Shown here: positions 43,591-58,458 of the stretch, piece after piece | Layout of the letters: each line of letters begins with the position of its first letter | How positions within the stretch are numbered: position 1 is the stretch's first letter | IMG/VR virus record: IMGVR_UViG_3300046557_000205 | Coordinates: 6,565-70,564 of that record | DNA length: 64,000 bases | Direction: 5' to 3' (one strand) | From: a virus | Program-made: the position numbers and the translations under genes | Notes under the pieces: model-generated | Databases searched by the model: none | Told to the model about the DNA's origin: nothing | The model's input: the letters and a program-made list of their open reading frames with translations, nothing else

Positions 43591-43594
43591 ATCT

Positions 43595-43633: not shown

Positions 43634-43634
43634 G

Positions 43635-43922
43635 TCAAATATCGTCTTCTTGATCCCCTTGTTGAGTAGGATCATAAGGTATTTCAAAAATAATATGATC
43701 TACTATGTATATTGGATGGGTATAACGTGGATTATCATTATCTTCTTCATCCCATATAACCCAAATGACATCATCTGTCTCTTCTCTAACCTCTTCAATA
43801 ACTAAATTACCCCAAACAGATTCAGCAAAATTTTCTGTGGTTACGGTACCCCATTGCACATATGCATGATCCTCTTCCTCCCAATGATTGGTTGATATCC
43901 TATCACCCTCACTAAATGTCAT
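43635..43922 (-). CDS. tagged KOW/SH3-like protein 1
   Basis: MTFSEGDRI...YDPTQQGDQEDDI. Confidence 0.85.
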   Translation of the reverse strand: MTFSEGDRISTNHWEEEDHAYVQWGTVTTENFAESVWGNLVIEEVREETDDVIWVIWDEEDNDNPRYTHPIYIVDHIIFEIPYDPTQQGDQEDDI

Positions 43923-44160
43923 CTTCACGATCCCCCATTTGAGTTGGATCATATTGGAGTTCAACATACTTCAAGTTCCAAGGGCTAGCCCCGAGAGCTC
44001 TTTGACGTTTATTAAACCTGACAATACAAACTTCACCTGGTACATCAATTTGTTCAATAATACCTTGCCAACCGATCCAACTTCTAGCACACGCACCACG
44101 ATGACCATTTATATACTCTACATGATCACCAACTTTGAAGGTAATTTCAGATATCATCAT
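43912..44160 (-). CDS. tagged KOW/SH3-like protein 2
   Basis: FKVGDHV...YDPTQMGDREDDI. Confidence 0.85.
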   Translation of the reverse strand: MMISEITFKVGDHVEYINGHRGACARSWIGWQGIIEQIDVPGEVCIVRFNKRQRALGASPWNLKYVELQYDPTQMGDREDDI

Positions 44161-44413
44161 CTCGATCCCCCATTTGCTTAGGGTCATATGGTCTTTCACC
44201 AGGTTGTAGATGCCTAGTGTATACAGGATACCATCCTTCTATGGAATATCCTTTTGCTATTTCTACCATTTTCCCAGAAGTAAATATGATATTAGAGACT
44301 TCATTGTCATTCCATTGATGATGATAAGAATGAAATATACCTTGTGAGTCTTGGAAATCACTATTAGGGTGACCTGAATATACTAAAAGATCACCCTTCT
44401 TAAATGTCATCAT
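44147..44413 (-). CDS. tagged KOW/SH3-like protein 3
   Basis: FKKGDLL...YDPKQMGDRDDDI. Confidence 0.85.
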   Translation of the reverse strand: MMTFKKGDLLVYSGHPNSDFQDSQGIFHSYHHQWNDNEVSNIIFTSGKMVEIAKGYSIEGWYPVYTRHLQPGERPYDPKQMGDRDDDI

Positions 44414-44666
44414 CTCTGTCTCCCATCTGTGTTGGATCGTATTTCTTCTCTGACCATACAAGTTTAAGACTACTGGAATATATCGCATAGCCTGCGACTT
44501 TCTTGTCTTTTATTCCATCAGTTATACGACCAGCTGTAAAATCAACTATAGATACACCTCTGAGTGAATAACTTTCATGATACTTTTTGAAAATACCAGT
44601 TGATTCATGATAAGGATGACCTATTTGATCATACATTACTTCATCACCTGGATTAAATATCGTCAT
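44400..44666 (-). CDS. tagged KOW/SH3-like protein 4
   Basis: FNPGDEV...YDPTQMGDRDDDI. Confidence 0.85.
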   Translation of the reverse strand: MTIFNPGDEVMYDQIGHPYHESTGIFKKYHESYSLRGVSIVDFTAGRITDGIKDKKVAGYAIYSSSLKLVWSEKKYDPTQMGDRDDDI

Positions 44667-45006
44667 CACGGTCTCCCATTTGGGTAGGATCATACTTCAT
44701 TTCAGCAAGTTTCAGGGTTCTGGAATTACTAGAAACTCTACTATTGTTTTTTCCAAGGGTACGGACGTAATTACTACCAAGTGATTTCTGTGCAAATTCA
44801 TAAATCAAATATGTAGAGGTTGGAAAATGAATATCCTTAGATCCAACCCACCATTTAACATCACTCTTGGACTTATCTTCATCCCATTTAATGATGTATT
44901 CGGAGTTATTCGGACAGCAAGAAATGATTGTACCAAACCACTCCCCATTCATACCCATAGATTTATTGCTGTATTTAACAAAATCCCCCAGTTTAAACTT
45001 AGCCAT
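44653..45006 (-). CDS. tagged KOW/SH3-like protein 5
   Basis: FKLGDFV...YDPTQMGDRDDDI. Confidence 0.85.
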   Translation of the reverse strand: MAKFKLGDFVKYSNKSMGMNGEWFGTIISCCPNNSEYIIKWDEDKSKSDVKWWVGSKDIHFPTSTYLIYEFAQKSLGSNYVRTLGKNNSRVSSNSRTLKLAEMKYDPTQMGDRDDDI

Positions 45007-45051
45007 TATAGCACCTTTTAACTATTTGTGTAACAAATTTCACGCTGATCT

Positions 45052-45678
45052 TCAGCTAGTAAAATAATATGTTCTGTCATGTTGATAAATGGTAGCACAT
45101 GAGATTAAATGACCCTGTGCAAACATAGCATACTCTGAGAAAAATTCAAAGTCTACTAGATACATGAAAGCTTTGATTGCTCTCGTGTTGTCTTGCTTTT
45201 TGTCAGTGAGTTTTATCCATTCGAGTTCACGATTGTTACCCTCTGAATTACCCATGTACTTATCAATAGCACATAGAGTACGAAGATCCACCCCATACAC
45301 ATCACCTTCGATACGACCACAATACTGCATATTGAATACATCACTGTAGTTATCACGAAGGATTGTATCTGTCGTTGGAAACTTGAATGCCATTGGTTCT
45401 GGTGACTCAGAGTTTACATCGTAGTGATCATAGTTAGTACGTTTGAGTAGATACTCATCCTTACTATAAGTAATCCCCTCACCATAGTACTTACAATGAG
45501 CAAGATACGTTAGATTCAGTGGTCTATTACGACGAAGATTACCTGTAACCATAACAAGAAATTCATTATGGATAAGATTATAATCCTTGAGGTTGTTCCA
45601 GTCTGGTGTGTTCTCTGAGGCCTTTTCGATCCGAGCCCAAGGATCGTAATCAAGCGGCTTCCGCTGTCTGACTGACAT
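45052..45678 (-). CDS. divergent gamma-glutamylcyclotransferase (AIG2)-like protein
   Basis: VMVTGNLRR (cf. VYGTL), IEGDVYGV, IDKYMG (cf. LDxxEG), AFMY. Confidence 0.55.
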   Translation of the reverse strand: MSVRQRKPLDYDPWARIEKASENTPDWNNLKDYNLIHNEFLVMVTGNLRRNRPLNLTYLAHCKYYGEGITYSKDEYLLKRTNYDHYDVNSESPEPMAFKFPTTDTILRDNYSDVFNMQYCGRIEGDVYGVDLRTLCAIDKYMGNSEGNNRELEWIKLTDKKQDNTRAIKAFMYLVDFEFFSEYAMFAQGHLISCATIYQHDRTYYFTS

Positions 45679-46726
45679 CAGTAGTTCCCTTCTTCAGTTC
45701 AATAATCTTCTGTTCACCACGCTTCTTTGCTGCTTGAAGGAGACGGACGAGTTTAGTCTGCTTCCTTACCTGATCAGCCATATGACCCATCAGTGCTGCA
45801 ATAGAATATGGACCTTCATTATCAATCAGATCGACCCACTCATCATACGTGATAAGCGATAGCTTAGCGAGAAGCTCCGGATCATCAAGATCCCAACGAT
45901 CAATGATGTCAGTAACGGCTTTAACGATGACTGACGAACGAGCATTACTGAAGTCCCAAACCTGAACGTCTTGACTGGTTCCTGCAATAGTCCTGGAATG
46001 ATCTGAGGGCCGAAAAGGGCCTGCAATTGCTAGTTGCGCCTCCCTTTCTTTGCGTGCCTCCTCCCTTGCTGCTTCCTCGCTTGCCTTTCTAACATCTTCA
46101 AGTCTTTGAAAGTATGGTCCACGCGAAAGTTTATCAAAGTAATCGTTGTTGGAGATCCAAACTTCACCGCTTGTTTCACCACCATCTTTGTGCTTGTACT
46201 CGGACCAACCATAACCAATCTTGAGGAATGGCATATCATTCGAGATGAATAGACCCTTTGACTGAGATACCCACTGTTTTTCAACAATAAGCTTCCAGAA
46301 GTCGGGGTCAATATAATCACCCTTCCACTTGCTCAACCCCGGAGTGAGGATTTTTTCACAGAAATCGAGGGTGTCAGATTTGCCAGTGTTGTGTTCTCCA
46401 AACATACCCAAAGTGCCGTTGTGCATGAACCACACTTGACGCTTGTTACTATGATAGACCGAGAACGGTTGCGTATTGCTCTCGTCTGTTGCTCCCTTGG
46501 TCGACCAACGGACATGAAGAATGCGTTCAATATCTTTGTTGTCTTCGAGAAGATCATAGATTTCTTCTGGATCATTTCCCTCTGCCCTAAACTTCTTGAT
46601 CAATTGTGCATGTCCATTGCCATCCTTAAGGATTAGGCCATACCCATGTGGATTGTTATGCACTGCATTCGTCAAGTGCTCCTTGGTGATCATTGCACCA
46701 GAAGCCAGATGGATTATAACGCACAT
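45650..46726 (-). CDS. class II (Ntn) glutamine amidotransferase-like protein
   Basis: N-terminal Cys, NPHGYG, HVRWSTKG, NTQPF, HNG, SDT. Confidence 0.88.
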   Translation of the reverse strand: MCVIIHLASGAMITKEHLTNAVHNNPHGYGLILKDGNGHAQLIKKFRAEGNDPEEIYDLLEDNKDIERILHVRWSTKGATDESNTQPFSVYHSNKRQVWFMHNGTLGMFGEHNTGKSDTLDFCEKILTPGLSKWKGDYIDPDFWKLIVEKQWVSQSKGLFISNDMPFLKIGYGWSEYKHKDGGETSGEVWISNNDYFDKLSRGPYFQRLEDVRKASEEAAREEARKEREAQLAIAGPFRPSDHSRTIAGTSQDVQVWDFSNARSSVIVKAVTDIIDRWDLDDPELLAKLSLITYDEWVDLIDNEGPYSIAALMGHMADQVRKQTKLVRLLQAAKKRGEQKIIELKKGTTDVSQTAEAA

Positions 46727-46744
46727 CGTGAAAGTTCTTCCTAT

Positions 46745-47008
46745 TTAAATATCATCATCCCGGTCACCCATTTGTTTGGGATCATAGGGTATTTCTTTTG
46801 CATCTCGTTCCCATTTCCAAGCAGTAAAACCACTGTAACCGATTGAAGTGGGATAATCACCACCCCAACCGTGAATGAATGAGATCATCTTAGTCTTTTT
46901 GTTATTCTCTTTTATGAGGTGGGGACGAGGTTGGTGTTTTGCCTCATCAACTATCCATATCTCATCCCCAACTTCAAAGTCTTGGGCTTCAACTCTTTCT
47001 CTTTGCAT
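46745..47008 (-). CDS. tagged KOW/SH3-like protein 6
   Basis: FEVGDEI...YDPKQMGDRDDDI. Confidence 0.85.
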   Translation of the reverse strand: MQRERVEAQDFEVGDEIWIVDEAKHQPRPHLIKENNKKTKMISFIHGWGGDYPTSIGYSGFTAWKWERDAKEIPYDPKQMGDRDDDI

Positions 47009-47787
47009 TAGAATCCTGCCATTGCTGTCCGATAGTTGGTTACAGTTGCACCAGTGAGACCAGGAGCTGTGTTCACTTCAAGGGCATATGCACGATTGGA
47101 TGCCTGATTGAAGATCACATCAGAAGCACCGAAATCCAACCCAAGAGCTTGAACAGAACGGATACCAGCATCAAGTACACACGGTGGGACCACATGACCA
47201 TCATTGCGGGTATAGATGAACCCATTGGCCAGATTACGAATCTTCCAGTTGACACCTTCAGTTCCCTGATGCTCCGGACGAAGGCCCTTACGTTGTGTAT
47301 CAATTACTGCTCCACGACAAACATGAATACGATACTCATGCTTTTTGCTGATATACTTCACATACAAAGGAGCGGTCTGTTCCCAAGTATCCGGATGTTC
47401 TGGATCCATGATGACAATACCACGTCCTGAATGGGCTCTCAGCTGTGTCCGGGCAAATACCATAGTACCGGCCTCCAACCATGCCAAAGCCTCTGTACGG
47501 TTCGTTGTGAACTCAGGAGAGGGTACTCCTGCCTCACGGAACTTCTGGAATGTCAAAGTCTTGTTCACTGCGATATCAACGTTCTCTGGTTTGTTGATTA
47601 CAGTGCACTTTGCCAGTTCAGGGTTGGTGAACCGTTCAGTTGTCGCTCCCCAATTGAGAAGAATCTTATCCTTCGAACCCTTGAACTTGGAACCGTTATG
47701 CTTGACCCTCGGAATACCAAGAATCTCAGAAAGTTCCTTTGCGCCTTCAGATGCATTATTGTACGAAAACATTGCCTTGATAGTCAT
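47008..47787 (-). CDS. ATP-grasp ligase (RimK-like)
   Basis: NK, HSGRGI, EYRIHV, GLDFGASD, LEVNTAPG. Confidence 0.9.
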   Translation of the reverse strand: MTIKAMFSYNNASEGAKELSEILGIPRVKHNGSKFKGSKDKILLNWGATTERFTNPELAKCTVINKPENVDIAVNKTLTFQKFREAGVPSPEFTTNRTEALAWLEAGTMVFARTQLRAHSGRGIVIMDPEHPDTWEQTAPLYVKYISKKHEYRIHVCRGAVIDTQRKGLRPEHQGTEGVNWKIRNLANGFIYTRNDGHVVPPCVLDAGIRSVQALGLDFGASDVIFNQASNRAYALEVNTAPGLTGATVTNYRTAMAGF

Positions 47788-47788
47788 T

Positions 47789-48055
47789 TTAGATATCGTC
47801 CTCTCTGTCACCCATCTGGGTGGGATCATATGGAATTTCTGCTAGTCTAATAGTAGTACCATCGTTAGGGTGAGTGTATCGTCTACTAATTGGTCCTACT
47901 ACTTGAAAGTATTTTACATCAATGAGAGTGTTTTTATCCCATTGAATACCTACTGCTTCAGCACCTATATCAAAAACAATACCAGTACTACCAGCATAGG
48001 TTTTGGAACCACAATATTCAACTCGGTCCCCAATATGAAATATCTCTCCTGCCAT
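47789..48055 (-). CDS. tagged KOW/SH3-like protein 7
   Basis: FHIGDRV...YDPTQMGDREDDI. Confidence 0.85.
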   Translation of the reverse strand: MAGEIFHIGDRVEYCGSKTYAGSTGIVFDIGAEAVGIQWDKNTLIDVKYFQVVGPISRRYTHPNDGTTIRLAEIPYDPTQMGDREDDI

Positions 48056-49086
48056 TATAGATCACCCTGAGCATCCACAATCTTGTTGGTCGGATTGACA
48101 CGATGATAAATTTCGTAAACAATCAAACGTTCATGATAAGGGATCTGATCGAAACCAGAGTTAAACTGTTTCTGAGAGATTGCTTCCAATTGTTCCTTGA
48201 TCTTCTCCTTGTATACCGGCTTGACCTTCAAGATACCAAACTTAGACCAATCCTTCGATACACCTGCCAGATTTGCTGCATACCATACATCACGGTCCAT
48301 CTCTCTTTTGATGTCCTTGACGGTAGCCTTCAGCTTCTTAGCATGTTCCTTGAGGATGATATCAACCAGAGCTGGACCATTCTCACTGTACATCTTACAG
48401 ATTGTTGCAGGAGTTAGCTTAGGGTCAGCAGCGAACTGCTTGATCCGATCAATGATGTCGATCCATTCCTGGATGACCTTGATATCAGTCTCACCACGGA
48501 AGGAACGTACTTCCAGTGTCCCAAGAGTGGACAGAGTAGCAGCATTGAGTGCAGAGTACTTTACGTGCTCGGAGTTCAATACTGCCTTGCTGAACGAGTT
48601 TCGATTGATCTGTGATAGAAGGTTAATCCACTTGTTCAAAAGCCCCTCAGCGTCTCGTACGGGCAGACAGAACAGGTTTGACAGACGATCTGGGCCTGAA
48701 TATCGGATCAACATCGTTTCCAACAATACCCATGCTGTCATGAAGTTCGCTACTGTCAGGTAGGTCTCATTCAACATGTTGACATGTACATGAACAGATG
48801 TAGACACTGATGACGTCTTGAACTTCCATTTTTTGTCACAGGCTTGGAATTCAGTCAGTGCTCGTTCCAACTCAGGCCCACCCATAGGACCCTTCAAGAC
48901 ATACTCTACACCCCAATCTCGGAGAGAGTTGTCCTTTTTGGCTTCCCAATACTTGAGAGCAGGGTAATCATACTTCTTGTCGGTCTCAGTTTCGATCTCA
49001 ACACCAAAGTCTCCTGTGTAACGAGTACCAATCCCTCGTCCAGAAGACTTCATGATGTCATATACTTTATTCAAATTCGTAGACAT
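48055..49086 (-). CDS. putative amidoligase (Amidoligase_2, GS-like fold)
   Basis: FGVEIE, GVEYV, SVHVHVN, KYSALN, GTLEVRSF. Confidence 0.88.
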   Translation of the reverse strand: MSTNLNKVYDIMKSSGRGIGTRYTGDFGVEIETETDKKYDYPALKYWEAKKDNSLRDWGVEYVLKGPMGGPELERALTEFQACDKKWKFKTSSVSTSVHVHVNMLNETYLTVANFMTAWVLLETMLIRYSGPDRLSNLFCLPVRDAEGLLNKWINLLSQINRNSFSKAVLNSEHVKYSALNAATLSTLGTLEVRSFRGETDIKVIQEWIDIIDRIKQFAADPKLTPATICKMYSENGPALVDIILKEHAKKLKATVKDIKREMDRDVWYAANLAGVSKDWSKFGILKVKPVYKEKIKEQLEAISQKQFNSGFDQIPYHERLIVYEIYHRVNPTNKIVDAQGDL

Positions 49087-49712
49087 TATTTATTACCTTC
49101 TTGAATATCCCAGTCTTTAATATCAGACAAGAAAAAGATAGCATAGCAAGACGTATCAGTCGTAGGAACGATGACCTTCTTTGTCCCCATCCGGACATAT
49201 CCTACTTCAATTTCCTTGACAAACACCTTGAGCTTATCATATTCCCTCTGAACTGCCACATCTCGCGATAGAGCAACAGAGAAAAACCCTTTCTCAACCA
49301 AGAGTTTCATCGCTTGAGAAAATGATGGGTAATTGTTTGCCACACAATCAACCAAGCACTTACCTTCAAGGATCTTCGGATGGACTCCAGCACCATTACT
49401 ACGGAGAACTGTCTGTGTCAGGCGTTGTACATCGATACCTTGACGGTACTGACGAGCAGGTTCACGCTTCAAATACACTGCCAGCTTGTAATCTGGGTGA
49501 TCAATGTTGAGATACCCCAAAGTCAAGCTACTAATATCGATATTGACATCTTCCGGGTCAACATTTGAGGCAATCAAACCATGACCTTCGAGGGAAAAGA
49601 GGGCCAACTGACCCAAATCCTGTACCTCTACCTTCACTGGTATGCCTTTGTACCGAATAATGGTACCACCAAGACGAGCCTTGATGTCTTCACCCTTGTA
49701 TTTATTACGCAT
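49086..49712 (-). CDS. hypothetical protein of the ligase cluster
   Basis: MRNKYKGEDIKARLGGTII..LGYLN..R.P.RQYRQG; start right after ligase stop. Confidence 0.7.
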   Translation of the reverse strand: MRNKYKGEDIKARLGGTIIRYKGIPVKVEVQDLGQLALFSLEGHGLIASNVDPEDVNIDISSLTLGYLNIDHPDYKLAVYLKREPARQYRQGIDVQRLTQTVLRSNGAGVHPKILEGKCLVDCVANNYPSFSQAMKLLVEKGFFSVALSRDVAVQREYDKLKVFVKEIEVGYVRMGTKKVIVPTTDTSCYAIFFLSDIKDWDIQEGNK

Positions 49713-49713
49713 T

Positions 49714-50430
49714 TTAGAGTCCGATAAGTTCGCGGAACGTATTCCGGGTCTGGTTAAAAATAAGACGACGTGTTTCTTCACGTCCCACCCAAAGATTTGA
49801 AGGGGCACGGAGTTCAACACCGTACTTCTTAGGGCGGAAAGAGCCGCTATGGCCATAATAAATCAACCGTTCTTGTTCTTCCTCAGTGTGTGGGGTATAC
49901 AAAGACAGACCCTTCTTGTGGAATTCCCTTGCAAAATACAAGCAATCCTCAAAATGATCTGCTTCCATAGGATTATCAATCAACTCATCCCGGAAACCGA
50001 TATGAATATGACCGGCAGCCGTACGAAGGGTATCTCCCTCAAGTGCCTCCGTTGGGTTGATGTTAACCTGCCCTTCGATATTGAAGTCAGGGTCACAACC
50101 AAGGACCTTGTTGTCCTCAGGTATCATAGTCCAGATGTCTTTACGGAACCGTGCCACTGGTGTCCACGAGACAGTGTAGTCTTTGTCCACCTTCTTGATC
50201 ATAGTGTCGATTTGTTGAGTAACAGCGACTACATTCCGGTTGAACTCTTCTTCGTTCTCTGCCGGATCAATGTTGAACTCTACTGCTACACCGTCTACCT
50301 GTACTGCACCATGCTCAATCTTGTATGGGTTATGCTTGTCTCCGGGAATAATTCCGGTCGCAGGAATAAACGTACCTGCCTTGTCAACAATAAACCCTTC
50401 CGGGTCTGCACCAATACGTATCGTAGTCAT
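49714..50430 (-). CDS. phiEco32-like COOH-NH2 ligase type 2
   Basis: IGADPE, QVDGVAVEFN, GCDPDFN, RTAAGHIHIG, RPKKYGVELR. Confidence 0.9.
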   Translation of the reverse strand: MTTIRIGADPEGFIVDKAGTFIPATGIIPGDKHNPYKIEHGAVQVDGVAVEFNIDPAENEEEFNRNVVAVTQQIDTMIKKVDKDYTVSWTPVARFRKDIWTMIPEDNKVLGCDPDFNIEGQVNINPTEALEGDTLRTAAGHIHIGFRDELIDNPMEADHFEDCLYFAREFHKKGLSLYTPHTEEEQERLIYYGHSGSFRPKKYGVELRAPSNLWVGREETRRLIFNQTRNTFRELIGL

Positions 50431-50474
50431 TATATTACCTTTGAAAATATACTTTGAGCGTAATTGCTCTTTGC

Positions 50475-50756
50475 TTAAATATCGTCTTCTAAATCACCCA
50501 TCTGACTTGGGTCGTATGCACGTTCTTCGTCGATATGTTCAAGATTACTGGGGAAAACCCCCAGAGAATGGTCATAACTAGAACCGAATTTCCAAAACTT
50601 CTCGTCTACTTCAAAATAGACATTCTCTTTAGTACCTTCGAGTGTAACAGTACCGGTAATCCCAATCCTATTCAAGTCGATTGAACTAATGACACCATGT
50701 TCTTTCCAGTAATTACCGGTATACCTTACTCTGTCACCTTTCTTAAATGTCGTCAT
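50475..50756 (-). CDS. tagged KOW/SH3-like protein 8
   Basis: FKKGDRV...YDPSQMGDLEDDI. Confidence 0.85.
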   Translation of the reverse strand: MTTFKKGDRVRYTGNYWKEHGVISSIDLNRIGITGTVTLEGTKENVYFEVDEKFWKFGSSYDHSLGVFPSNLEHIDEERAYDPSQMGDLEDDI

Positions 50757-51024
50757 CACGGTCCCCCATTTGAGTAGGGTCGTAAGGTATTTCTCGGAGA
50801 GAGAGTTTTTCTGGTGGAAAAAACCAACCCTCTTTCTCTTTGAGACCACCATGAAGATTATGCTTCAGAGTTTTAGTGGTTCTCTTATCCTCTCTAGTGA
50901 TTTTGATACCATAACAAGCATAGCTGTGTTTATCACCGGGCTTAGTGATGACCTCACCCTCTCCTGCCCCGGAGCCCATGTAGTCTTGGAAATTTATGAG
51001 ATCTCCATAATTAAATTTACTCAT
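50743..51024 (-). CDS. tagged KOW/SH3-like protein 9
   Basis: FNYGDLI...YDPTQMGDRDDDI. Confidence 0.85.
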   Translation of the reverse strand: MSKFNYGDLINFQDYMGSGAGEGEVITKPGDKHSYACYGIKITREDKRTTKTLKHNLHGGLKEKEGWFFPPEKLSLREIPYDPTQMGDRDDDI

Positions 51025-52280
51025 CCCACTTTGGCCTCTGGTTTGCAGTTGTCACAGTAATATTCCCCATGCTTTTCATCATAGGAGAAACCCTTGAGAA
51101 GACCACGACGGCATCGATCACTTTCAAACAAATTGAACCGCTTCTTCTCGCAACGGCACTTGTTCCAGAATGTCTTGATCGATTGGTGTTTGAACACCGG
51201 TTGTTTAACTATCTTCACTTCTGGTTGCACAACAGGAACTGAACGATTGCCCGTACCAGTAGCCGCAGCTTGCTTGTTGAAGGGAATAACGACACTCTCA
51301 CCCATTGGTGTCTTCCACCGTTCGGGTTCACCATTGACGTCCTGGGACAAAAAATCAGGAGACCATACACCTCCTTTATTCGTCGTTCCCCCAGATTGCG
51401 GAGTAAAATTTAGGCGTTCCTCTCTGTCCAACCTCTCTCTGTTGGTCTCTTCTTGGACTACGACAGGAACCTGCTTCTTCATCTCAGGATGTTCGTTGGT
51501 ATAACCAAAATGTTTCCAGACATATGCTGTCGGATCCTTTTTGATATTGGCCATCGTTACATCTGACGACGATACAGTGATAACCTGATGAGAAGCAAAG
51601 CCCATAACATTTGCATCACCTTCACCATTACGACCAAGGATATACCGGAGCATACCGATATCAGATGCCCAATACATGACACCACGATCCTTCAGGAACG
51701 CAAAGGCGAGGTCTCGTGCACCATTACGAGCAAAGTACATCTTGTGGTCTGCACGGTTGTACATAGTGATTGCATAGGCACTACGAACATCGAGATCATT
51801 CAGGACATCGAGGATGTTACCCTTCTTCTCCTGCATACGATGATTGATATCAAGGAACAACAATTCGCTGTCGGTCTTCTTGTTATCTTCATACTTCTTG
51901 TCTACGAGTGTACCATTGTGTGCACCTACGATATTGTAAGTGTTGAATGGATGAGCATTGGCCTCATTGATATGACCCTTGGTTGCCCAACGAACATGGC
52001 ACATCAATACGTCAGCCATCGTTGACTTGAGAAGATCAGCATAGTCTTTGTCTTTACGACCATGATGTTCATCAATCTCAGTCATCATCGACGACCAGTT
52101 TTCTGGTGACTTGTATATCTGCTCATACTTGAAGGCGTTCTTACCGAATGCCTGTGAACGAACTTGATATATGCCAGCACCATCGATACCCCTGATCTGA
52201 GATACAAATCCCAATTCTCGGAGAATCTTATAGTCCTTGACCTGAATTCCAGGCCCCATCATTCCCAAAAGTCCACACAT
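51021..52280 (-). CDS. class II (Ntn) glutamine amidotransferase with Cys-rich C-terminus
   Basis: MCGLLG, RG.DGAG, HVRWAT, NAHPF, HNGTL, TDSE. Confidence 0.9.
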   Translation of the reverse strand: MCGLLGMMGPGIQVKDYKILRELGFVSQIRGIDGAGIYQVRSQAFGKNAFKYEQIYKSPENWSSMMTEIDEHHGRKDKDYADLLKSTMADVLMCHVRWATKGHINEANAHPFNTYNIVGAHNGTLVDKKYEDNKKTDSELLFLDINHRMQEKKGNILDVLNDLDVRSAYAITMYNRADHKMYFARNGARDLAFAFLKDRGVMYWASDIGMLRYILGRNGEGDANVMGFASHQVITVSSSDVTMANIKKDPTAYVWKHFGYTNEHPEMKKQVPVVVQEETNRERLDREERLNFTPQSGGTTNKGGVWSPDFLSQDVNGEPERWKTPMGESVVIPFNKQAAATGTGNRSVPVVQPEVKIVKQPVFKHQSIKTFWNKCRCEKKRFNLFESDRCRRGLLKGFSYDEKHGEYYCDNCKPEAKVG

Positions 52281-52552
52281 TAAATATCGTCCTCTCGATC
52301 ACCCATCTGAGTGGGATCGTATTGAATTTCTGCTGGTATAAAACGTCTGGCACTATATGGACCCATCCCTTCCACCCAACTCTTTTGATGTTCTGGTGGA
52401 GGAACAAGTGTCACTAGTGGGTTCACATTCCCATCTAGAGTATCACTATTGTTGAAAGCCTTTTGGACGACATATTCAACATCACCCTTAAGACGAGACA
52501 ACTTCCAGTCTATGCACTGTACTCTATCACCCGGCGAAAACTGGTGTGCCAT
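52280..52552 (-). CDS. tagged KOW/SH3-like protein 10
   Basis: FSPGDRV...YDPTQMGDREDDI. Confidence 0.85.
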   Translation of the reverse strand: MAHQFSPGDRVQCIDWKLSRLKGDVEYVVQKAFNNSDTLDGNVNPLVTLVPPPEHQKSWVEGMGPYSARRFIPAEIQYDPTQMGDREDDI

Positions 52553-53366
52553 AGTTCTTCCCGATATGTTCAAGATACTTTCGTATGCCTGTTCGTGATG
52601 ATGATTTACCGCCCTGCACGGATTTGACAAAGCCAGCACACAGATCGTCACTATAGATACGAGTCCCAGTGTCAAAAAGAAGGTTAGTAACATGGACTGT
52701 CATCTCAAAGACAAACTCTTGTGTTGACTTATCCCTAAGATAGGCATTGGAGAGAGGTCGATACTCCACACCATAGGGTTTGGGCCTGAATGACCCCATC
52801 TTACCATACAATGTACGACGTTTCGTGTCGTCGTCCCAGAGAAGGCTACTCGGGTAGAGTGTAACATCTAACTGTTGGACCAGTTCACGACAATTCGAGA
52901 TGTGTCTTTCGTCCGTAATAGAATGACCATCTCCCCACCCAATATGGATATGCCCCGCTCCAGTACGAAATGTCTCATTCGTGAACGGAGGTTCATTTTC
53001 TTTTCCTGTGTAAGCATTGAAGTCGGGAGTACATCCCAGAACTTTAATCTCCTCGGGAAGCGCATCGAAGTACACCTTATCAAAATGAGCTGTAGGGATA
53101 ATGTCAAGGTCATATGCAGGTTTCTTCTCCTGAATAATCTCCGTCATGGAGTTCATGACACTACGAATACTCTTTGTGAACTCATCCTTCGTTTCAGCAG
53201 GATCAATATTGAATTCACAAGCAACACCATCCACCTGAATAGCTCCACGTGGTACATGATGTGGCATATCCTTTGTCCCTGGGATGAGATCATGACCAGA
53301 TACATATCGGCCATATTCATCAATCACAAAGAGTTCGGGATCTGTTCCTATTAGAATTCGGTTCAT
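52527..53366 (-). CDS. second phiEco32-like COOH-NH2 ligase type 2
   Basis: IGTDPE, QVDGVACEFN, GCTPDFN, RTGAGHIHIG, RPKPYGVEYR. Confidence 0.9.
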   Translation of the reverse strand: MNRILIGTDPELFVIDEYGRYVSGHDLIPGTKDMPHHVPRGAIQVDGVACEFNIDPAETKDEFTKSIRSVMNSMTEIIQEKKPAYDLDIIPTAHFDKVYFDALPEEIKVLGCTPDFNAYTGKENEPPFTNETFRTGAGHIHIGWGDGHSITDERHISNCRELVQQLDVTLYPSSLLWDDDTKRRTLYGKMGSFRPKPYGVEYRPLSNAYLRDKSTQEFVFEMTVHVTNLLFDTGTRIYSDDLCAGFVKSVQGGKSSSRTGIRKYLEHIGKNYGTPVFAG

Positions 53367-54343: not shown

Positions 54344-54349
54344 TGAAAC

Positions 54350-55003
54350 CTACCTAAGCATATCAAAGATGTTAAAGAAATAATCTCGGCATTCACTCTT
54401 GGACTTACCGACTGCACGAACTTCCCATTCAGGATGTGGCTGGAAGCAAAGGGAACGAGTATTGTCATACCACAAAACCTCAGGCTCTACCGCTGGCTTG
54501 GTGATAGGACCATTCTGACCATAGCACTCAGTGATACGATTCTCTGAGTATGCAATGATCTCTGCACTCTCAGCAGGAACCATCATCTGATGATGACTGC
54601 TTGTGACTGTGACCGGTTCAGGTGAGCCGAGAAGAGTATCAAACATCTCATGCTCAATGGTGTGGTTATCCACATGTTGGATCATCTTGCCACCATTCAT
54701 GACATTCAAGAACTGACCGCCACGGCAGATACCCACCTTGATCTGATCAGCCCGTGTCTTCTTCCATGCAGCAATGTCACGATCATCCGTGTGTGCATCG
54801 ACAGAGAACTTGTGCATCTTGGGGCCAAGCTTCTCCTGATACAAAGCAGGACTGATGTCATGACCACCAATGAAGCAAACAATGTCTGCCTGCTCAATAC
54901 GAGCTTCGAGTGGATACCGTGCTTCATACCACATGGCACTGATATCACGAGATGCACCAACGATATATACCGATGGCTTACGTGGGGTTGCATCGTTAGT
55001 CAA
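54350..55003 (-). CDS. class I glutamine amidotransferase / peptidase C26-like
   Basis: GGHDI, GICRGGQ, SSHHQ, QPHPE; TTG start after GGGGA. Confidence 0.9.
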   Translation of the reverse strand: MTNDATPRKPSVYIVGASRDISAMWYEARYPLEARIEQADIVCFIGGHDISPALYQEKLGPKMHKFSVDAHTDDRDIAAWKKTRADQIKVGICRGGQFLNVMNGGKMIQHVDNHTIEHEMFDTLLGSPEPVTVTSSHHQMMVPAESAEIIAYSENRITECYGQNGPITKPAVEPEVLWYDNTRSLCFQPHPEWEVRAVGKSKSECRDYFFNIFDMLR

Positions 55004-55004
55004 C

Positions 55005-55871
55005 TTATCGTCCCCATTTTTCGAGTTTGGTCTTGAGGTGCTCACTGAGTGTGCTAAGCCTTTGCTGATCAAGGGTGTAGACAGTAGCCGTAGGAGCGCC
55101 ATACCGGGCACCTGTTGCTGCTGTTGTTGCGATCCCGAAGGATTGTTTGAATTCACCGGACAGTACCTTTCCTGTTCCAGACCATAGTTCCCTCGTGTAG
55201 GCATCTCTCTCCTTACCACGATGGGTTTCATTACGATAGAACATACCCCAATCGGTACTTCCATCAATTGTCACCTGATGAGAACCAGTCCAACCACCAG
55301 TGAATGTCCCACCAATGGCAATTTGTTCATCAGGTAGTATCGATAGATAGTACATCATGATGTGAGCTAGCTTCTTGTTTACTCCTAGTTCAACAAGACG
55401 GCCCCATACATTGACGTTAGCTACCTTATCCTTTGGTGCTCTACTCTCAATAAGGAAAGCATAAAAGAGTAGTGACATACCATCTTTCATCAAAGCATCG
55501 GGAACCCTAAAGCCAAGCATCTGATCTGAGTTATCAGTGAGAACCTCCCATCCGGGTACTTTGAAGAAATCCTGATAGAAACACTCAGGACCAGTAATGT
55601 AATCCCACCACTCTTTTGCATACTTATGTCCCCCACCATAATTGGACACAAGATCACTGATGAAGGTAGACCGACGAATGCCAGCATGACATGTCTGACC
55701 AGAGTGTCTCACTGGTTCAGGCTTTGATAGTGCAGCACCATATGCACCAGTACCAGTTAGGCATGAATACACACAGATACCAGTCTTACCATGAATGGCG
55801 ACATGTTGTTCACTCGGATCTTTGGGATCATAAACCCTTCTAGACAAGCTCAAGCTTCCAGGCTTTTGCAT
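55005..55871 (-). CDS. hypothetical protein (start uncertain)
   Basis: Long ORF in operon. Confidence 0.7.
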   Translation of the reverse strand: MQKPGSLSLSRRVYDPKDPSEQHVAIHGKTGICVYSCLTGTGAYGAALSKPEPVRHSGQTCHAGIRRSTFISDLVSNYGGGHKYAKEWWDYITGPECFYQDFFKVPGWEVLTDNSDQMLGFRVPDALMKDGMSLLFYAFLIESRAPKDKVANVNVWGRLVELGVNKKLAHIMMYYLSILPDEQIAIGGTFTGGWTGSHQVTIDGSTDWGMFYRNETHRGKERDAYTRELWSGTGKVLSGEFKQSFGIATTAATGARYGAPTATVYTLDQQRLSTLSEHLKTKLEKWGR

Positions 55872-56493
55872 CTTCTTTGAGCCTCCGAGTAGAGATCTTA
55901 ATCCAATTGTCACCGTAGTTGTTCCACTTCTTGATATCGATACCGAACTTCAGCTTGATATGTTTTGCTGCTGCGTCCGGAGGGACGAGGAGAACGTGCT
56001 CAATGCGATTATCAACCCCAGTGTTGTCTTGGACGATGCGGGCCTTCCTAAGTTTCGACAACAGAATGTCCTCAAACGCTTGGCGCTTTGGATCTGGTTT
56101 CTTTGGAGGATCAATCTTGTCTTTGAGTTCTTTGAGTTCTTCATGGAAAGATGTGAGAGCCTTTTCGTACTCGCTCGGCTGCGCAGTGAAGAGGTATATA
56201 TCACCTGTGTCCTTGTGGCGTTGTTCGTTGTGTTTGTTTTTCTCCCCGTGGAACACCTGGACGAAGCCACATTTGGGGAGGAACTCGTCCAGTCCATGAT
56301 ACTCGATCTGTTTCCCGGTGACCGTAACCATAATTCCTGCAAAGTCACGCTTAAAGCCCAACTTTATCATTTCAGCTACAGTGTTCAATCGGGAATTGAC
56401 CTGCAACTTAGGGTCCTTTGACACCAAATTAGCAATATCCCATCCCACAAGGTGGGACATAGTGCATGTAGTAGACACAGCTACATGTTGCAT
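55840..56493 (-). CDS. hypothetical protein
   Basis: MQHVAVS start after purine-rich RBS. Confidence 0.7.
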   Translation of the reverse strand: MQHVAVSTTCTMSHLVGWDIANLVSKDPKLQVNSRLNTVAEMIKLGFKRDFAGIMVTVTGKQIEYHGLDEFLPKCGFVQVFHGEKNKHNEQRHKDTGDIYLFTAQPSEYEKALTSFHEELKELKDKIDPPKKPDPKRQAFEDILLSKLRKARIVQDNTGVDNRIEHVLLVPPDAAAKHIKLKFGIDIKKWNNYGDNWIKISTRRLKEDAKAWKLELV

Positions 56494-56528
56494 GTTAAAT
56501 CTTTCTTTCTGTGGTTGTACGATTTCTC

Positions 56529-56567: not shown

Positions 56568-56663
56568 GAACAGAACAATAAGCTTTTAAACTTATTAACT
56601 CAATGTTAGTTCTTACAGTACAACTTATGGAACTGTGTACCTGATGTTATCCTCAGGTATACC

Positions 56664-57011: not shown

Positions 57012-57391
57012 TTTGTTTCCTTCTTTGTGTAGTCATCAATCTGCTGTTGAATGACCTTGTTGATACCATCAAGCAATTCTTTAGCCTGAGGTGTTTCGAC
57101 GATCTGTTGTCCGAACTGTGATCCTGCCATCAAGAGGATGGTCTGACGTCCTGGTATCAGGATAGAACAAAAGATCATGACGAATATCAGAGGTGCAGCC
57201 CATCGCCACCATGTGTAGACATGCGGGACCCAATTTGGTCGACGTCTCAAGTCATAGTCACTGTTCCTTGCCAAGAAACAGATCGTAATAATACCGGCGG
57301 CACAAAGTCCACATACTGACAATATTGCTAGCATGATGGAGAGTGATGGAAGGATGTCTGCAAGATAGATAACAAGTGTAAGCTGGTTCAT
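57008..57391 (-). CDS. membrane protein
   Basis: Two TM segments; ATGA coupling. Confidence 0.75.
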   Translation of the reverse strand: MNQLTLVIYLADILPSLSIMLAILSVCGLCAAGIITICFLARNSDYDLRRRPNWVPHVYTWWRWAAPLIFVMIFCSILIPGRQTILLMAGSQFGQQIVETPQAKELLDGINKVIQQQIDDYTKKETK

Positions 57392-57439
57392 AGGTAGTGA
57401 TCCTCTTCGTTGATATAGTCTTCTTCATTGCTGAAGTAG

Positions 57440-57670
57440 TCACGCAGTTGCTTCGACAGTCTTTTCCACCAAGAACTTCTCTTTGATGAGTGGGCCATTG
57501 AATCCAAACTCCAATGTTGCGGGGACAGATTCTTGAAACACTAGGTGCTCTACATCTGTCATGATCTTGTCAGTAGCAGCCTTCTCAGTTCCGTACATCC
57601 CAGATGCTACAAGGTCTTGCCTCTGGGTATTCCAGTACAGATTAGTCCACGTCTTTTTCTCGAACCGCAC
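57440..57670 (-). CDS. hypothetical protein
   Basis: GTG start after GGAGG. Confidence 0.6.
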   Translation of the reverse strand: MRFEKKTWTNLYWNTQRQDLVASGMYGTEKAATDKIMTDVEHLVFQESVPATLEFGFNGPLIKEKFLVEKTVEATA

Positions 57671-57776
57671 GTTTCACCCTCCGTGGTTTTTCAGGAATAG
57701 AGAAAGCTCTAGCCAATCTCTCTTTGTATACGTATTTCATATGATCTTCATAGATCTCATCATCAAGCAAAATCAT
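57642..57776 (-). CDS. 44-aa hypothetical protein (not in ORF track)
   Basis: MILLDDEIYEDHMK..., ATGA overlap with the stop of tag 11, GAGG RBS inside tag. Confidence 0.55.
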   Translation of the reverse strand: MILLDDEIYEDHMKYVYKERLARAFSIPEKPRRVKRAVREKDVD

Positions 57777-58042
57777 ATATCATCCTCACGGTCCCCCATT
57801 TGAGTAGGATCATACTTCATTTCAGCAAACACAAAGCGAGATGCTTTCCACTTGGCTGTAGGATTAAAAGCATATTCATATGGAACACGAACCATATGTA
57901 GCTCTTTGTCATCACTCATTACAGCCTCAGTGACTACATACTCTTGGCCAACATTAAGTCTACCAATCGCCAGGCCCGAGCAATCGATACAACGAACCCT
58001 ATCGCCTTTTGAGAATCGTGTGTAGGACGTCTCTGTCGACAT
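57773..58042 (-). CDS. tagged KOW/SH3-like protein 11
   Basis: FSKGDRV...YDPTQMGDREDDI. Confidence 0.85.
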   Translation of the reverse strand: MSTETSYTRFSKGDRVRCIDCSGLAIGRLNVGQEYVVTEAVMSDDKELHMVRVPYEYAFNPTAKWKASRFVFAEMKYDPTQMGDREDDI

Positions 58043-58175
58043 GCCACTGGTCCTTCCTGACTCCTTCCGCCCTACTTCTCTTGATAATTCGTCGAATTGC
58101 GCTGATCGTCGCCGACCGTCCTTCGATATGGCTCTGGGAATGCGCATCCTCATCATCTTTTTTCTCATATATCAT
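57999..58175 (-). CDS. 58-aa hypothetical protein
   Basis: MIYEKKDDEDAH..., start inside tag 12. Confidence 0.5.
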   Translation of the reverse strand: MIYEKKDDEDAHSQSHIEGRSATISAIRRIIKRSRAEGVRKDQWHVDRDVLHTILKRR

Positions 58176-58458
58176 CTTCCCGATCTCCCATCTGTGTTGG
58201 ATCATAAGGGCGTTCAGTCACAATCTTCACCATACCGTTGAATTGTGCATGACGATACTTACTCGTGTGGTTGTTATGTTGAGTACTATTATGCCAATGA
58301 CGACAAAGAAGAGGATAATGCTCGTCAGGATTAACAGCCTCAACTACCCATTTGTGTTCAGGACCAAAGCCATAGTGACCAGCAAGCTTAGGAGGATAAC
58401 AAATCTCATCCCCTACGGAATAATCATCTTCCCCAAGTATAGGTTCGGTCTGTCGCAT
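58165..58458 (-). CDS. tagged KOW/SH3-like protein 12
   Basis: YSVGDEI...YDPTQMGDREDDI. Confidence 0.85.
   Translation of the reverse strand: MRQTEPILGEDDYSVGDEICYPPKLAGHYGFGPEHKWVVEAVNPDEHYPLLCRHWHNSTQHNNHTSKYRHAQFNGMVKIVTERPYDPTQMGDREDDI

What the first reader, a model, noticed from the sequence alone, without database searches (positions are those of the whole stretch)
43635..58458. Twelve divergent SH3/KOW-like proteins share a conserved C-terminal 13-aa tag and are interleaved with a peptide-ligase cluster: candidate phage protein-tagging/conjugation system
Seen in sequence: 12 ORFs of about 80-120 aa end in YDP[TKS]Q[MQ]GD[RLQ][DE]DDI-stop, with 9 of 13 positions invariant. The tags lie at 43635, 43912, 44147, 44400, 44653, 46745, 47789, 50475, 50743, 52280, 57773 and 58165. 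All 12 begin with [FY]xxGDx[VIL] and have unalignable middles. Conservation appears to be at the peptide level: the copies use TAT/TAC, CCT/CCA/CCC, CAA/CAG, GGG/GGA/GGT, CGT/CGA/CGG/AGA, all three Ile codons and all three stops, yet always end at the Ile. In this window the tagged genes occur only in the ~15 kb holding 2 COOH-NH2 ligases, an amidoligase, an ATP-grasp ligase, 3 amidotransferases and 2 GGCTs, often directly after an enzyme gene. Established: GS-fold PafA/Dop act on the C-terminal tail of Pup, the ATP-grasp LysX acts on the EDWGE tail of LysW, and RimK acts on the acidic tail of S6. Inference: the tail is a shared recognition or acceptor signal (invariant Gln, Asp carboxylates or the free C-terminus), and the variable barrels act as target-specific adaptors or modifiers. 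Other readings are a docking peptide for a common hub or a localisation signal. I know of no description of such a tagged family.
Basis: partly seen in the sequence, partly recalled or inferred. Interest (0 to 1): 0.96.

Follow-up and report, generated by a model that had tools for sequence, protein, structure and literature searches.

The report
Shared C-terminal tail on phage proteins
A dozen small early proteins of this phage end in the same 13-residue acidic peptide, which recurs in related phages and on one host enzyme and looks like a portable docking tag with an unknown partner.

Summary
Twelve minus-strand genes end in YDP[TKS]Q[MQ]GD[RQL][DE]DDI-stop. Synonymous sites are saturated and amino-acid changes rare (pN/pS 0.07). 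The family is undescribed and confined to one lineage of 66-70 kb podophages. That lineage includes the cultured Rhizobium phage RHph_N3_19 and Sinorhizobium phage phiM6, with 11-16 copies per genome. phiM6 carries a different tail, Y[KR]xDQEPxExEExL.

Tails resemble each other more within a genome than between genomes. This points to one shared, co-evolving partner.

The link to the ligases is not independently supported. The ligase module occurs without tails in 3 of 3 outside phages checked. In phiM6 the tailed genes form a separate block.

The same tail is appended to histidyl-tRNA synthetase in a few Rhizobium/Agrobacterium species, with phage-like codon usage. The tail is therefore a portable module.

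A lineage-restricted GNAT-like protein (55840-56493) is the best partner candidate, from a correlated motif change. This rests on a single contrast.

Best reading is a docking peptide on variable KOW/SH3-like adaptors (about 0.4). The main rival is a covalent ligase or amidotransferase substrate (about 0.25).

The parts
43635..43922 (-). tailed protein 1 (95 aa, MTFSEGD...YDPTQQGDQEDDI). Its ATG lies inside the Asp codons of the upstream tail.
   Evidence: P0003, 95 aa
43912..44160 (-). tailed protein 2 (81-82 aa, ...YDPTQMGDREDDI)
   Evidence: P0007
44147..44413 (-). tailed protein 3 (87-88 aa, ...YDPKQMGDRDDDI)
   Evidence: P0009
44400..44666 (-). tailed protein 4 (88 aa, ...YDPTQMGDRDDDI)
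44653..45006 (-). tailed protein 5 (117 aa). It has weak sub-threshold Agenet/Tudor-like Pfam hits. Similar proteins occupy the same position in relatives.
46745..47008 (-). tailed protein 6 (87 aa), between the ATP-grasp gene and GATase II-a
47789..48055 (-). tailed protein 7 (88 aa). The AF2 model is a five-strand barrel with a low-confidence tail.
50475..50759 (-). tailed protein 8 (93-94 aa, ...YDPSQMGDLEDDI)
50743..51024 (-). tailed protein 9 (93 aa)
52280..52552 (-). tailed protein 10 (90 aa from MAHQFSPGD; the open frame reaches 52693)
57773..58168 (-). tailed protein 11. It is 131 aa from an ATG overlapping the stop of protein 12, giving a basic N-terminal extension, or 89 aa from the ATG at 58042.
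58165..58458 (-). tailed protein 12 (97 aa), overlapping the end of the GGCT gene
55840..56493 (-). lineage-restricted 217-aa protein: GNAT-like N-domain, invariant linker KIDPPKKPDPKR, helical C-domain. It is the candidate partner of the tail.
45052..45678 (-). lineage-restricted 208-aa protein with a sub-threshold GGACT/GGCT-like hit. In 6 of 7 genomes it directly precedes a run of two to five tailed genes.
45650..46726 (-). class-II glutamine amidotransferase-like protein (GATase_4/6), N-terminal Met-Cys
47008..47829 (-). RimK-like ATP-grasp ligase
48055..49086 (-). Amidoligase_2
49714..50430 (-). COOH.NH2 ligase (phrog_3815)
51021..52280 (-). class-II glutamine amidotransferase-like protein
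52527..53366 (-). second COOH-NH2 ligase
54350..55267 (-). Peptidase_C26 / class-I GATase-like gamma-glutamyl hydrolase. The true start is probably downstream of the listed TTG.
58424..58825 (-). gamma-glutamyl cyclotransferase. A tailed gene follows and overlaps it here and in four relatives checked (G001, G003, G006, RHph_N3_19).

Best explanation
The 12 genes are a lineage-specific paralogous expansion of small early proteins, found in phages of the phiM6 type. Each has a variable KOW/SH3-like beta-barrel followed by a flexible, acidic C-terminal short linear motif: aromatic-x-x-x-Gln-x-Gly-Asp-x-acidic-acidic-Asp-Ile-COOH. Shown: the motif is under strong purifying selection as a peptide. 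It is portable between unrelated proteins. It is homogeneous within each phage genome and differs between genomes. It is not needed by the ligase module as such. Inferred: the tail is a non-covalent docking peptide that brings all the paralogues to one shared partner, which co-evolves with it. The variable barrels supply different binding specificities, so the proteins act as adaptors. The partner is more likely phage-encoded than a conserved host hub. The best candidate is the lineage-restricted GNAT-like protein at 55840-56493, through its invariant basic, proline-rich linker. A second role is shown directly by the sequence. The tail's codons carry the Shine-Dalgarno sequence and start codon of the next gene, and the tails sit at the breakpoints of gene-order rearrangements between relatives. 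The tail DNA therefore also serves translational coupling and cassette shuffling.
For: Selection on the peptide: pN/pS 0.068 with saturated synonymous sites, and codon variation at every degenerate site.

Lineage restriction and copy number: 231 word-sharing candidates and 51 hits at E<=0.1 among 5.8 billion proteins, none carrying a functional name (where a source gives one, it is 'hypothetical protein'). IMG/VR scans find multi-copy tails only in 66-70 kb genomes and their fragments. There are 11-16 copies per genome in seven genomes.

Within-genome homogeneity: QMGDR here, Q[AVM]GDT in G001, QQGD in G006 and G007, YSP[DE]Q[NS]GD in G008, and DQEPxExEExL in phiM6. Mean tail identity is 0.77 within a genome (606 pairs). 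It is 0.68 for barrel-similar pairs from different genomes (22 pairs) and 0.56 for other cross-genome pairs (3837 pairs). Saturated synonymous sites argue against recent gene conversion as the cause.

Phage-encoded partner: phiM6 and RHph_N3_19 infect hosts of one family (recalled taxonomy), yet their tails differ sharply.

Portability: HisRS of Rhizobium sp. L43, R. binxianense BJ04, Agrobacterium sp. NPDC090283 and cluster P0068 ends in the same tail, as a clean ~54-nt 3' insertion. GC3 is 0.33-0.44 in the tail against 0.82-0.86 in the gene body.

Candidate partner: the 217-aa protein is found only in tail-bearing phages. All 4 tblastn hits in 50,697 phage records are phiM6 and three RHph phages. 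It has 16 homologues among 5.8 billion proteins and is present in 7 of 7 tail genomes. Its linker KIDPPKKPDP[KAE]R is conserved, with IDPPKKPDP and the final R invariant, in 17 of 17 aligned sequences, and the motif is also present in RHph_N3_19; it is replaced by RLD-RRRICPER in phiM6, the one phage with the other tail type. Among 12 shared early proteins it has the highest fraction of six-genome-invariant columns changed in phiM6 (13 of 48, against 0-0.19 for the others). It is also the only one with a run of six such columns (the others have 2 or fewer).

Fold: the barrel model has pLDDT 68, and its best Foldseek rows are KOW domains and eL21-type ribosomal proteins at E about 1e-2.

Tail DNA as SD plus start codon and as junction.
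Against: No binding has been shown for any partner.

The correlated change in the GNAT-like protein is a single phylogenetic contrast (phiM6 against the rest). It could simply reflect faster drift of that protein.

The tail-identity comparison rests on only 22 barrel-similar cross-genome pairs, and those may come mostly from closely related genomes.

The invariant Gln and the run of carboxylates are what a covalent substrate of amidotransferases or ligases would look like, and such enzymes are encoded all around the tailed genes.

The GNAT assignment is fold-level only: Z up to 7.7, Foldseek E 5e-3 or weaker, and no Pfam hit.

The barrels are variable, but their targets are unknown, so 'adaptor' is pure inference.

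The host HisRS tail fits a host-encoded reader just as well.
Confidence: 0.4

Rival explanations
1. Covalent substrate. The tail is recognised and chemically modified by the surrounding enzymes. Options include deamidation or transamidation of the invariant Gln by a class-II GATase-like enzyme, or glutamylation or ligation at Asp/Glu carboxylates or the C-terminal carboxylate by the ATP-grasp or GS-like ligases. The C26 and GGCT enzymes would act as erasers. The barrels would then be carriers or conjugated modifiers, working like pupylation or tubulin-tail glutamylation.
For: Gln is present in every tail listed across the seven phage genomes and in host HisRS, and an acidic run precedes the C-terminus throughout. 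Four ligases and five gamma-glutamyl or amide-cleaving enzymes are encoded among the tailed genes. Every complete tail-bearing genome has the module. The lineage also has an extra GATase II plus GGCT-like gene pair, which in 6 of 7 genomes directly precedes a run of tailed genes. The GGCT gene is followed and overlapped by a tailed gene here and in the four relatives checked.
Against: The module occurs without tails in 3 of 3 outside phages checked, and its ATP-grasp is in 313 phage records. Its core job therefore does not need the tail. Co-occurrence within one lineage is one observation. In phiM6 the tailed genes are not interleaved with the enzymes. Interleaving elsewhere is explained by cassette shuffling at tail junctions. 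The tail lacks the terminal Glu or Gln that the known carrier and modifier systems use (recalled). Twelve to sixteen different folded carriers have no parallel in those systems.
Confidence: 0.25
2. Host-factor ligand or degron. The tail is read by a host protein, such as a protease or unfoldase, or another hub. It would either time the removal of early proteins or deliver barrel-bound host targets to that factor. HisRS in some rhizobia would have gained the same ligand.
For: The motif occurs on a host housekeeping enzyme in three species representatives and is kept intact with conservative changes. A free C-terminal aliphatic residue after an acidic run is typical of peptide-binding grooves that clamp the carboxylate (recalled: SSB tails, EEVD-TPR, class III PDZ ligands).
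Against: The HisRS tail is foreign by codon usage and rare. It is in 1 of 30 HisRS loci read and in 1 of 401 family genomes by pattern. It is therefore not an ancestral host signal. phiM6 and RHph infect related hosts but have very different tails, which is unexpected for a conserved host reader. The phiM6-type tail was found in 0 of 401 family genomes searched.
Confidence: 0.15
3. Nucleic-acid-level element. The conserved 3' end is kept mainly because it supplies the ribosome-binding site and start of the next gene, and homology for cassette duplication and shuffling. On this view the peptide is a by-product.
For: The M-G-D codons read GGGGA or GGAGA, and the Asp codons contain the next gene's ATG in the tandem copies. 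Enzyme order differs between relatives, with tails at the junctions.
Against: Synonymous sites are saturated while the peptide is kept. The Y-D-P-x-Q half has no RBS role. Tails are equally conserved where the next gene does not overlap, for example at 46745 and 50475. The motif is also kept on host HisRS, where the next gene starts 9 nt (L057) or about 190 nt (L049, L059) beyond the stop.
Confidence: 0.05

Closest known systems
Pup with PafA/Dop (pupylation)
   Same: A small protein whose C-terminal tail is read by glutamine-synthetase-like carboxylate-amine ligases, with a Gln that must be deamidated (recalled). GS-like ligases (COOH-NH2_lig, Amidoligase_2) and amidohydrolase-type enzymes are encoded next to the tailed genes.
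   Different: Pup is disordered and ends in GGQ or GGE. Here the proteins have folded barrels, the Gln is nine residues from the end, and the terminus is Ile or Leu. No PafA or Dop homology was tested. No conjugation is shown. The ligase module exists without tails in other phages.
RimK with ribosomal protein S6, LysX with LysW, and tubulin-tail ligases (ATP-grasp enzymes acting on acidic C-terminal tails)
   Same: An ATP-grasp enzyme that PHROGs labels RimK-like, encoded beside proteins with acidic C-terminal tails.
   Different: Known substrates end in Glu (recalled). These tails end in Ile or Leu. The ATP-grasp has no Pfam RimK hit and no PDB sequence match at E<=0.01. It occurs in 313 phage records, and the three outside the lineage that were checked have no tails.
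Shared C-terminal docking peptides on diverse proteins: SSB acidic tip (DDDIPF), encapsulin cargo-loading peptides, poxvirus ankyrin proteins with a C-terminal PRANC/F-box (all recalled)
   Same: One short conserved C-terminal peptide on many otherwise different proteins, read by one common partner. Like the SSB tip, the tail has an acidic run followed by a hydrophobic end. Like the poxvirus family, it combines a variable binding domain, a constant C-terminal box and many paralogues per viral genome.
   Different: There is no sequence relationship. The partner is unknown. The phage's own gp2.5-like SSB (38142-38702) ends differently, in ...EELNDDLPW.
Phage 'peptide-bond' module of PA11, phiRIO-1 and phiEco32 type (Iyer et al. 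2009, cited second-hand)
   Same: The same set of COOH-NH2 ligase, amidoligase, ATP-grasp and GATase genes upstream of the primase-helicase. The module is mentioned for phiM6 in PMC6256558 (main text read) and in PMC10580990 (passages).
   Different: Those accounts propose peptidoglycan modification or metabolite synthesis. As far as I could read, they say nothing of a tailed protein family. Iyer 2009 itself is not held, and supplements were closed.

Membership tests
Pup-like prokaryotic modifier | Intrinsically disordered small protein ending in Gly-Gly-Gln/Glu (recalled definition) | tested here: not met
   All 12 end in DDI, with Gln at position -9. The model shows a five-strand barrel.
Pup-like prokaryotic modifier | Isopeptide conjugates to target lysines made by a PafA-type ligase | not testable with these tools
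   Needs mass spectrometry or western blots of infected cells.
LysW-type amino-group carrier protein | C-terminal EDWGE with a terminal Glu as the attachment site, and a zinc-ribbon body (recalled) | tested here: not met
   Tail sequence. No Cys-rich zinc ribbon appears in the 12 proteins.
RimK-family ATP-grasp (for 47008-47829) | Sequence membership in the RimK/ATP-grasp family | tested here: inconclusive
   phrog_2599 'ribosomal protein S6 glutaminyl transferase', E 1.3e-78. Against that, there is no Pfam family at E<=0.01, only Dala_Dala_lig_C at E 0.18, and no PDB chain at E<=0.01.
KOW / SH3-like barrel (for the tailed proteins) | Five-stranded small beta-barrel; Pfam KOW motif | tested here: inconclusive
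   The AF2 model (pLDDT 68) has five strands. The best Foldseek rows are Spt5/NusG KOW domains and eL21-type proteins, at E 8e-3 to 8e-2 and TM about 0.45-0.55. The Atlas structure search lists KOW clusters at TM 0.46-0.50. None of the 10 proteins scanned has a Pfam KOW or SH3 hit.
GNAT acyltransferase fold (for 55840-56493) | GNAT core fold with an acyl-CoA-binding beta4-alpha3-beta5-alpha4 region | tested here: inconclusive
   AF2 pLDDT 87.9. All listed Foldseek rows are GNATs, at E 5.5e-3 or weaker. With VIA-align, most of the 50 listed rows are GNATs, Z up to 7.7, covering residues 1-126 of the model against the C-terminal half of the targets. The tool warns that Z under 8 is common. No Pfam hit. 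The cofactor motif was not verified.
SSB-tip-like acidic C-terminal docking motif | Asp-rich run ending in Ile-Pro-Phe-COOH (recalled) | tested here: not met
   The tails end in DDDI or DEDI, without Pro-Phe.
The tail family itself (operational definition) | [YF]-x-x-x-Q-x-[GP]-x-x-acidic run-[ILV]-stop at the end of a 70-170 aa protein, in at least 10 copies per genome | tested here: met
   Per genome: 12 in the window's genome, 15 in G001, 14 in G006, 14 in G007, 13 in G008, 16 in RHph_N3_19, and 11-14 in phiM6 depending on the filter.

The most novel reading that the evidence does not exclude
The tail is the handle of a phage-encoded protein-targeting system. A dozen or more adaptor barrels each seize a different host protein and, through the common tail, deliver it to a phage enzyme hub. 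That hub would be the GNAT-like protein and/or the ligase and amidotransferase set, which covalently modifies the target or the adaptor. This would be a bacterial-virus counterpart of substrate-receptor families in ubiquitin-type systems. On this reading, rhizobia that fused the tail to HisRS did so as a decoy or as protection against the system.
Probability: 0.15. Interest if true: 0.95.

Novelty: new variant of a known kind. Interest (0 to 1): 0.8.

Why it matters
Families of viral proteins that pair a variable binding domain with one constant short tail usually mark a central hub of host takeover. Nothing of this sort is described for this group of phages, whose relatives are reported as abundant in the sea. 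The 'peptide-bond' enzyme module has no tested function in the papers read here. The family occurs in cultured, non-pathogen systems: phiM6 on Sinorhizobium meliloti and RHph phages on Rhizobium phaseoli. The partner and any chemistry can therefore be found with standard pull-downs and mass spectrometry. Capture of the tail by a host aminoacyl-tRNA synthetase is an unusual case of a short viral motif moving onto an essential host enzyme. It offers a natural experiment on what the tail does. A 13-residue portable tag with a dedicated reader could also be useful as a tool.

Tried and rejected
Searches that found nothing useful
- Megablast of 43000-53000 against the phage collection: no match.
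- tblastn of tailed protein 7 at E<=10: only four chance-level rows, and none from the known relatives, so this tool is blind to the tail.
- Pfam on 10 of the 12 tailed proteins: no family above threshold.
- PHROGs on two of them: only a weak N-terminal hit for protein 5.
- Pfam at E<=1 on the unknown neighbours: nothing usable, apart from the GGACT hint for 45052-45678.
- ESM Atlas for the 217-aa protein: no usable hit.

Complex prediction
- The 217-aa protein (alignment A3) with tailed protein 7 (alignment A2): 'no answer', score 0.00 in both runs, controls not run. This is neither for nor against binding.

Ideas considered and dropped
- The tail mimics the phage's own or the host's SSB tip. 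Dropped because the endings differ (and recall).
- The 230-aa protein at 60992-61684 is the partner. Dropped because it occurs in 36 phage records from groups other than the four tail-bearing isolates identified here, whose tail status was not checked.
- The tail copies an ancestral host signal. Dropped because of the foreign codon usage and rarity of the HisRS tail.
- Sinorhizobium-family genomes carry a phiM6-type tail on a host gene. Not found in the 401 genomes searched.
- Four single IMG/VR matches (L023, L033, L036, L037) and one Akkermansiaceae match (L050) lack the upstream Y-D-P or are not at a gene end. I treated them as chance. My own rough estimate of chance matches for these patterns is a few per scan; no tool computed it.

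Literature
- No paper in the library holds YDPTQ-type strings in a relevant context. The four listed hits are unrelated by title.
- Iyer et al. 2009 is not held. It is known to me only through citing passages.
- Supplements were closed and not consulted.

Not attempted
- Expression was not checked: no sequencing-run search was made.
- The reading of 34370-35254 as an exported trypsin-like protease rests on a weak PHROG hit and on motifs judged by eye.

Full report
WHAT IS THERE

The window is bases 6565-70564 of a complete 70,564-bp virus record with direct terminal repeats. Twelve minus-strand genes of about 81-131 codons end in YDP[TKS]Q[MQ]GD[RQL][DE]DDI followed directly by a stop, at exactly the coordinates given.

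A DNA pattern for the Met-containing version matches 11 times, against none in 100 shuffles. A looser pattern finds 12 of 12 in the whole genome and nothing outside the 43.6-58.5 kb stretch.

Nine of the 13 positions are invariant. Every degenerate codon position varies, and all three stops are used. Over the 66 pairs of copies, synonymous differences are saturated (pS 0.96) while non-synonymous ones are rare (pN 0.065; ratio 0.068). The tail DNA is 78% identical on average, against 37% for the 39 nt before it. This is selection on a translated peptide in old paralogues, not recent duplication or gene conversion.

All 12 share [FY]xxGDx[VIL] at the N-terminus.

The second 'GGCT' rests only on a sub-threshold hit.

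THE PROTEINS

None of the 10 proteins scanned has a Pfam family. With the last 16 residues removed, 39 of 78 family members from this and related contigs still link by BLASTP. Much of the family is therefore one diverged paralogous group.

An AlphaFold2 model of protein 7, built with a 33-row alignment, has moderate confidence (pLDDT 68). It shows five strands, and the tail region has low confidence. Its best structural neighbours are KOW domains of Spt5/NusG and eL21-type ribosomal proteins, at weak scores. 'KOW/SH3-like barrel plus flexible tail' is reasonable but not proven.

DOUBLE USE OF THE TAIL DNA

In the tandem copies the Met-Gly-Asp codons read GGGGA or GGAGA, and the Asp codons contain the next gene's ATG.

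Relatives carry the same enzymes in different orders, with tailed genes at the junctions. The tails therefore also act as coupling and shuffling points. That explains the interleaving with enzyme genes without any functional link.

It cannot explain the conservation of the peptide itself. The tail is just as conserved where the next gene does not overlap, and the Y-D-P-x-Q half has no ribosome-binding role.

WHERE ELSE THE TAIL OCCURS

- Among 5.8 billion proteins, only 231 share words with the family and 51 score E<=0.1. None carries a functional name; where a source gives one, it is 'hypothetical protein'.
- Scans of IMG/VR find multi-copy tails only in 66-70 kb genomes and fragments of them.
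- The closest cultured relatives, found through the ATP-grasp protein (about 62% identity), are Rhizobium phages RHph_N3_19, N3_13 and I3_11, and Sinorhizobium phage phiM6.
- RHph_N3_19 has 16 tailed genes interleaved with the enzymes. Its tails read Y[DN]PxQxGD[TR][DE][DE]DI or YxYDQ[ST]GDTE[ED]DI.
- phiM6 has 11-14 tailed genes, depending on the filter. They sit in one block upstream of a contiguous enzyme cluster and have a clearly different tail, [DE]Y[KR]xDQEPx[ED][DE]E[ED]x[LI].
- The common core across lineages is an aromatic residue, Gln four residues later, an acidic run and an aliphatic C-terminus.
- The phiM6 genome announcement mentions the seven-gene peptide-bond module but not this family (main text read). 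No paper in the library contains the motif in a relevant context.

CONCERTED EVOLUTION

The 'free' positions of the tail are genome-specific: QMGDR here, Q[AVM]GDT in G001, QQGD in G006 and G007, and YSP[DE]Q[NS]GD in G008.

Mean tail identity is 0.77 for pairs within a genome (606 pairs). It is 0.68 for pairs from different genomes whose barrels are similar (22 pairs), and 0.56 for other cross-genome pairs (3837 pairs). With saturated synonymous sites, the simplest cause is that all tails of a phage must fit one reader that drifts with the lineage.

phiM6 and the RHph phages infect hosts of one bacterial family (recalled), yet their tails differ sharply. This favours a phage-encoded reader over a conserved host hub.

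THE LIGASE LINK

Every tail-bearing genome that could be judged has the module. All belong to one lineage with shared synteny, so this is one observation.

The converse fails. PA11, the Zobellviridae record T5S1-k141_444551 and the early half of PaP3 carry the module and no shared-tail family (3 of 3). The ATP-grasp is in 313 phage records. Whatever the module does, it does not need the tails.

The covalent reading is still not excluded. The invariant Gln and the carboxylates are plausible substrates. The lineage has also added a second class-II GATase-like gene with an overlapping GGCT-like gene. In 6 of 7 genomes this pair directly precedes a run of tailed genes.

A CANDIDATE READER

Two early proteins are restricted to the tail-bearing lineage: the 208-aa GGCT-like protein (4 of 4 tblastn hits) and a 217-aa protein at 55840-56493 (4 of 4 hits). 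The 217-aa protein has 16 homologues in 5.8 billion proteins and is present in 7 of 7 tail genomes.

The 217-aa protein models well (pLDDT 87.9).
- Its first 110-125 residues resemble the acyl-CoA-binding half of GNAT acyltransferases. All listed Foldseek rows are GNATs at E 5e-3 or weaker, and VIA-align gives Z up to 7.7, a level the tool calls common.
- A helical C-domain follows a linker, KIDPPKKPDP[KAE]R. IDPPKKPDP and the final R are invariant in 17 of 17 aligned sequences, and RHph_N3_19 has the motif too.
- In phiM6, the one phage with the other tail type, this linker reads RLD-RRRICPER.

Among 12 shared early proteins, this one has the largest share of six-genome-invariant columns changed in phiM6: 13 of 48, against 0 to 0.19 for the others. 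It is also the only one with a run of six such columns. This is a single evolutionary contrast, so it is a lead and not a result.

THE HOST COPY

A search for longer proteins with the tail returned one hit. It is the histidine-tRNA ligase of the Rhizobium/Agrobacterium group, ending in ...ERPYDPTQSGDRDDNI.

A scan of one genome per 185,579 species found the tail pattern in two settings. One was phage contigs binned into MAGs. The other was the 3' end of hisS in Rhizobium sp. L43, R. binxianense BJ04 and Agrobacterium sp. NPDC090283, once per genome.

- Of 30 closely related HisRS loci read, 29 end about 18 residues earlier. One of these 29 comes from the unpublished genome G091.
- By pattern, 1 of 401 family genomes has the tail.
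- The tail is a clean insertion of about 54 nt before the stop, and the downstream gene is unchanged.
- Its third-position GC is 0.33-0.44, against 0.82-0.86 in the gene body.

It therefore came from AT-rich, phage-like DNA. It has been kept intact with conservative changes in two sequence types. This shows that the tail is an autonomous, transferable module. Why HisRS carries it is unexplained. A decoy for the phage system or protection from it is speculation.

VERDICT

The most likely mechanism is a docking peptide that ties a family of variable barrel adaptors to one co-evolving, probably phage-encoded partner (about 0.4). A covalent substrate role for the neighbouring enzymes is the main rival (about 0.25). 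A host reader or degron follows (about 0.15), and a purely nucleic-acid role is unlikely (about 0.05). The family is undescribed, sits in cultured non-pathogen systems, and can be tested directly.

Noticed in passing
L049, L053/L059, L057 (host genomes); protein P0068: Histidyl-tRNA synthetase of a few Rhizobium/Agrobacterium species carries the phage tail as a ~54-nt 3' insertion with AT-rich codons. 29 of 30 related HisRS loci lack it.
   Followed up: yes
window 55840-56493 (-): Lineage-restricted 217-aa protein with a GNAT-like N-domain and a conserved proline-rich basic linker, KIDPPKKPDP[KAE]R. The linker is replaced in phiM6.
   Followed up: yes
L042-L045, L019, L015 against window 45000-56500: The order of the ligase-module genes differs between related phages. 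In G006, for example, the ATP-grasp comes before the amidoligase and COOH-NH2 ligase. Tailed genes sit at the junctions, which suggests recombination at tail sequences.
   Followed up: partly
window 34370-35254 (-): 294-aa protein with an N-terminal hydrophobic segment and what look like His/Asp/Ser trypsin-like motifs (judged by eye), plus a weak PHROG 'protease' hit (E 1.4e-5). It may be an exported phage protease.
   Followed up: no
window 38142-38702 (-): 186-aa protein with no PHROG hit that looks like a T7 gp2.5-type single-strand-binding protein (recalled resemblance). It has an acidic C-terminus ending in ...EELNDDLPW.
   Followed up: no
window 57773-58168 (-): Tailed gene 11 has an alternative start that overlaps the stop of gene 12 (ATGA). 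It would add a 42-residue, strongly basic N-terminal extension that the other copies lack.
   Followed up: no
L051, L052, L056 (QFPW01000021.1); L048; L054, L055: Contigs with many tails and 40-43% GC are filed in MAGs named Rhodovulum, Pseudobdellovibrionaceae and Cellvibrionaceae. They look like phage contigs of this lineage binned with bacteria, so the MAG names are not reliable host assignments.
   Followed up: partly
L017 (phiM6) 571-5176: About half of the phiM6 tails have Cys at the second-to-last position (EECL or EECI). The phiM6 version of the 217-aa protein's linker also gains a Cys (RRRICPE).
   Followed up: no
window 60992-61684 (-): 230-aa protein (phrog_8970, function unknown) shared with Erwinia, Serratia, Xanthomonas and Gordonia phages (36 records). 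It lies at the start of the early arm.
   Followed up: partly
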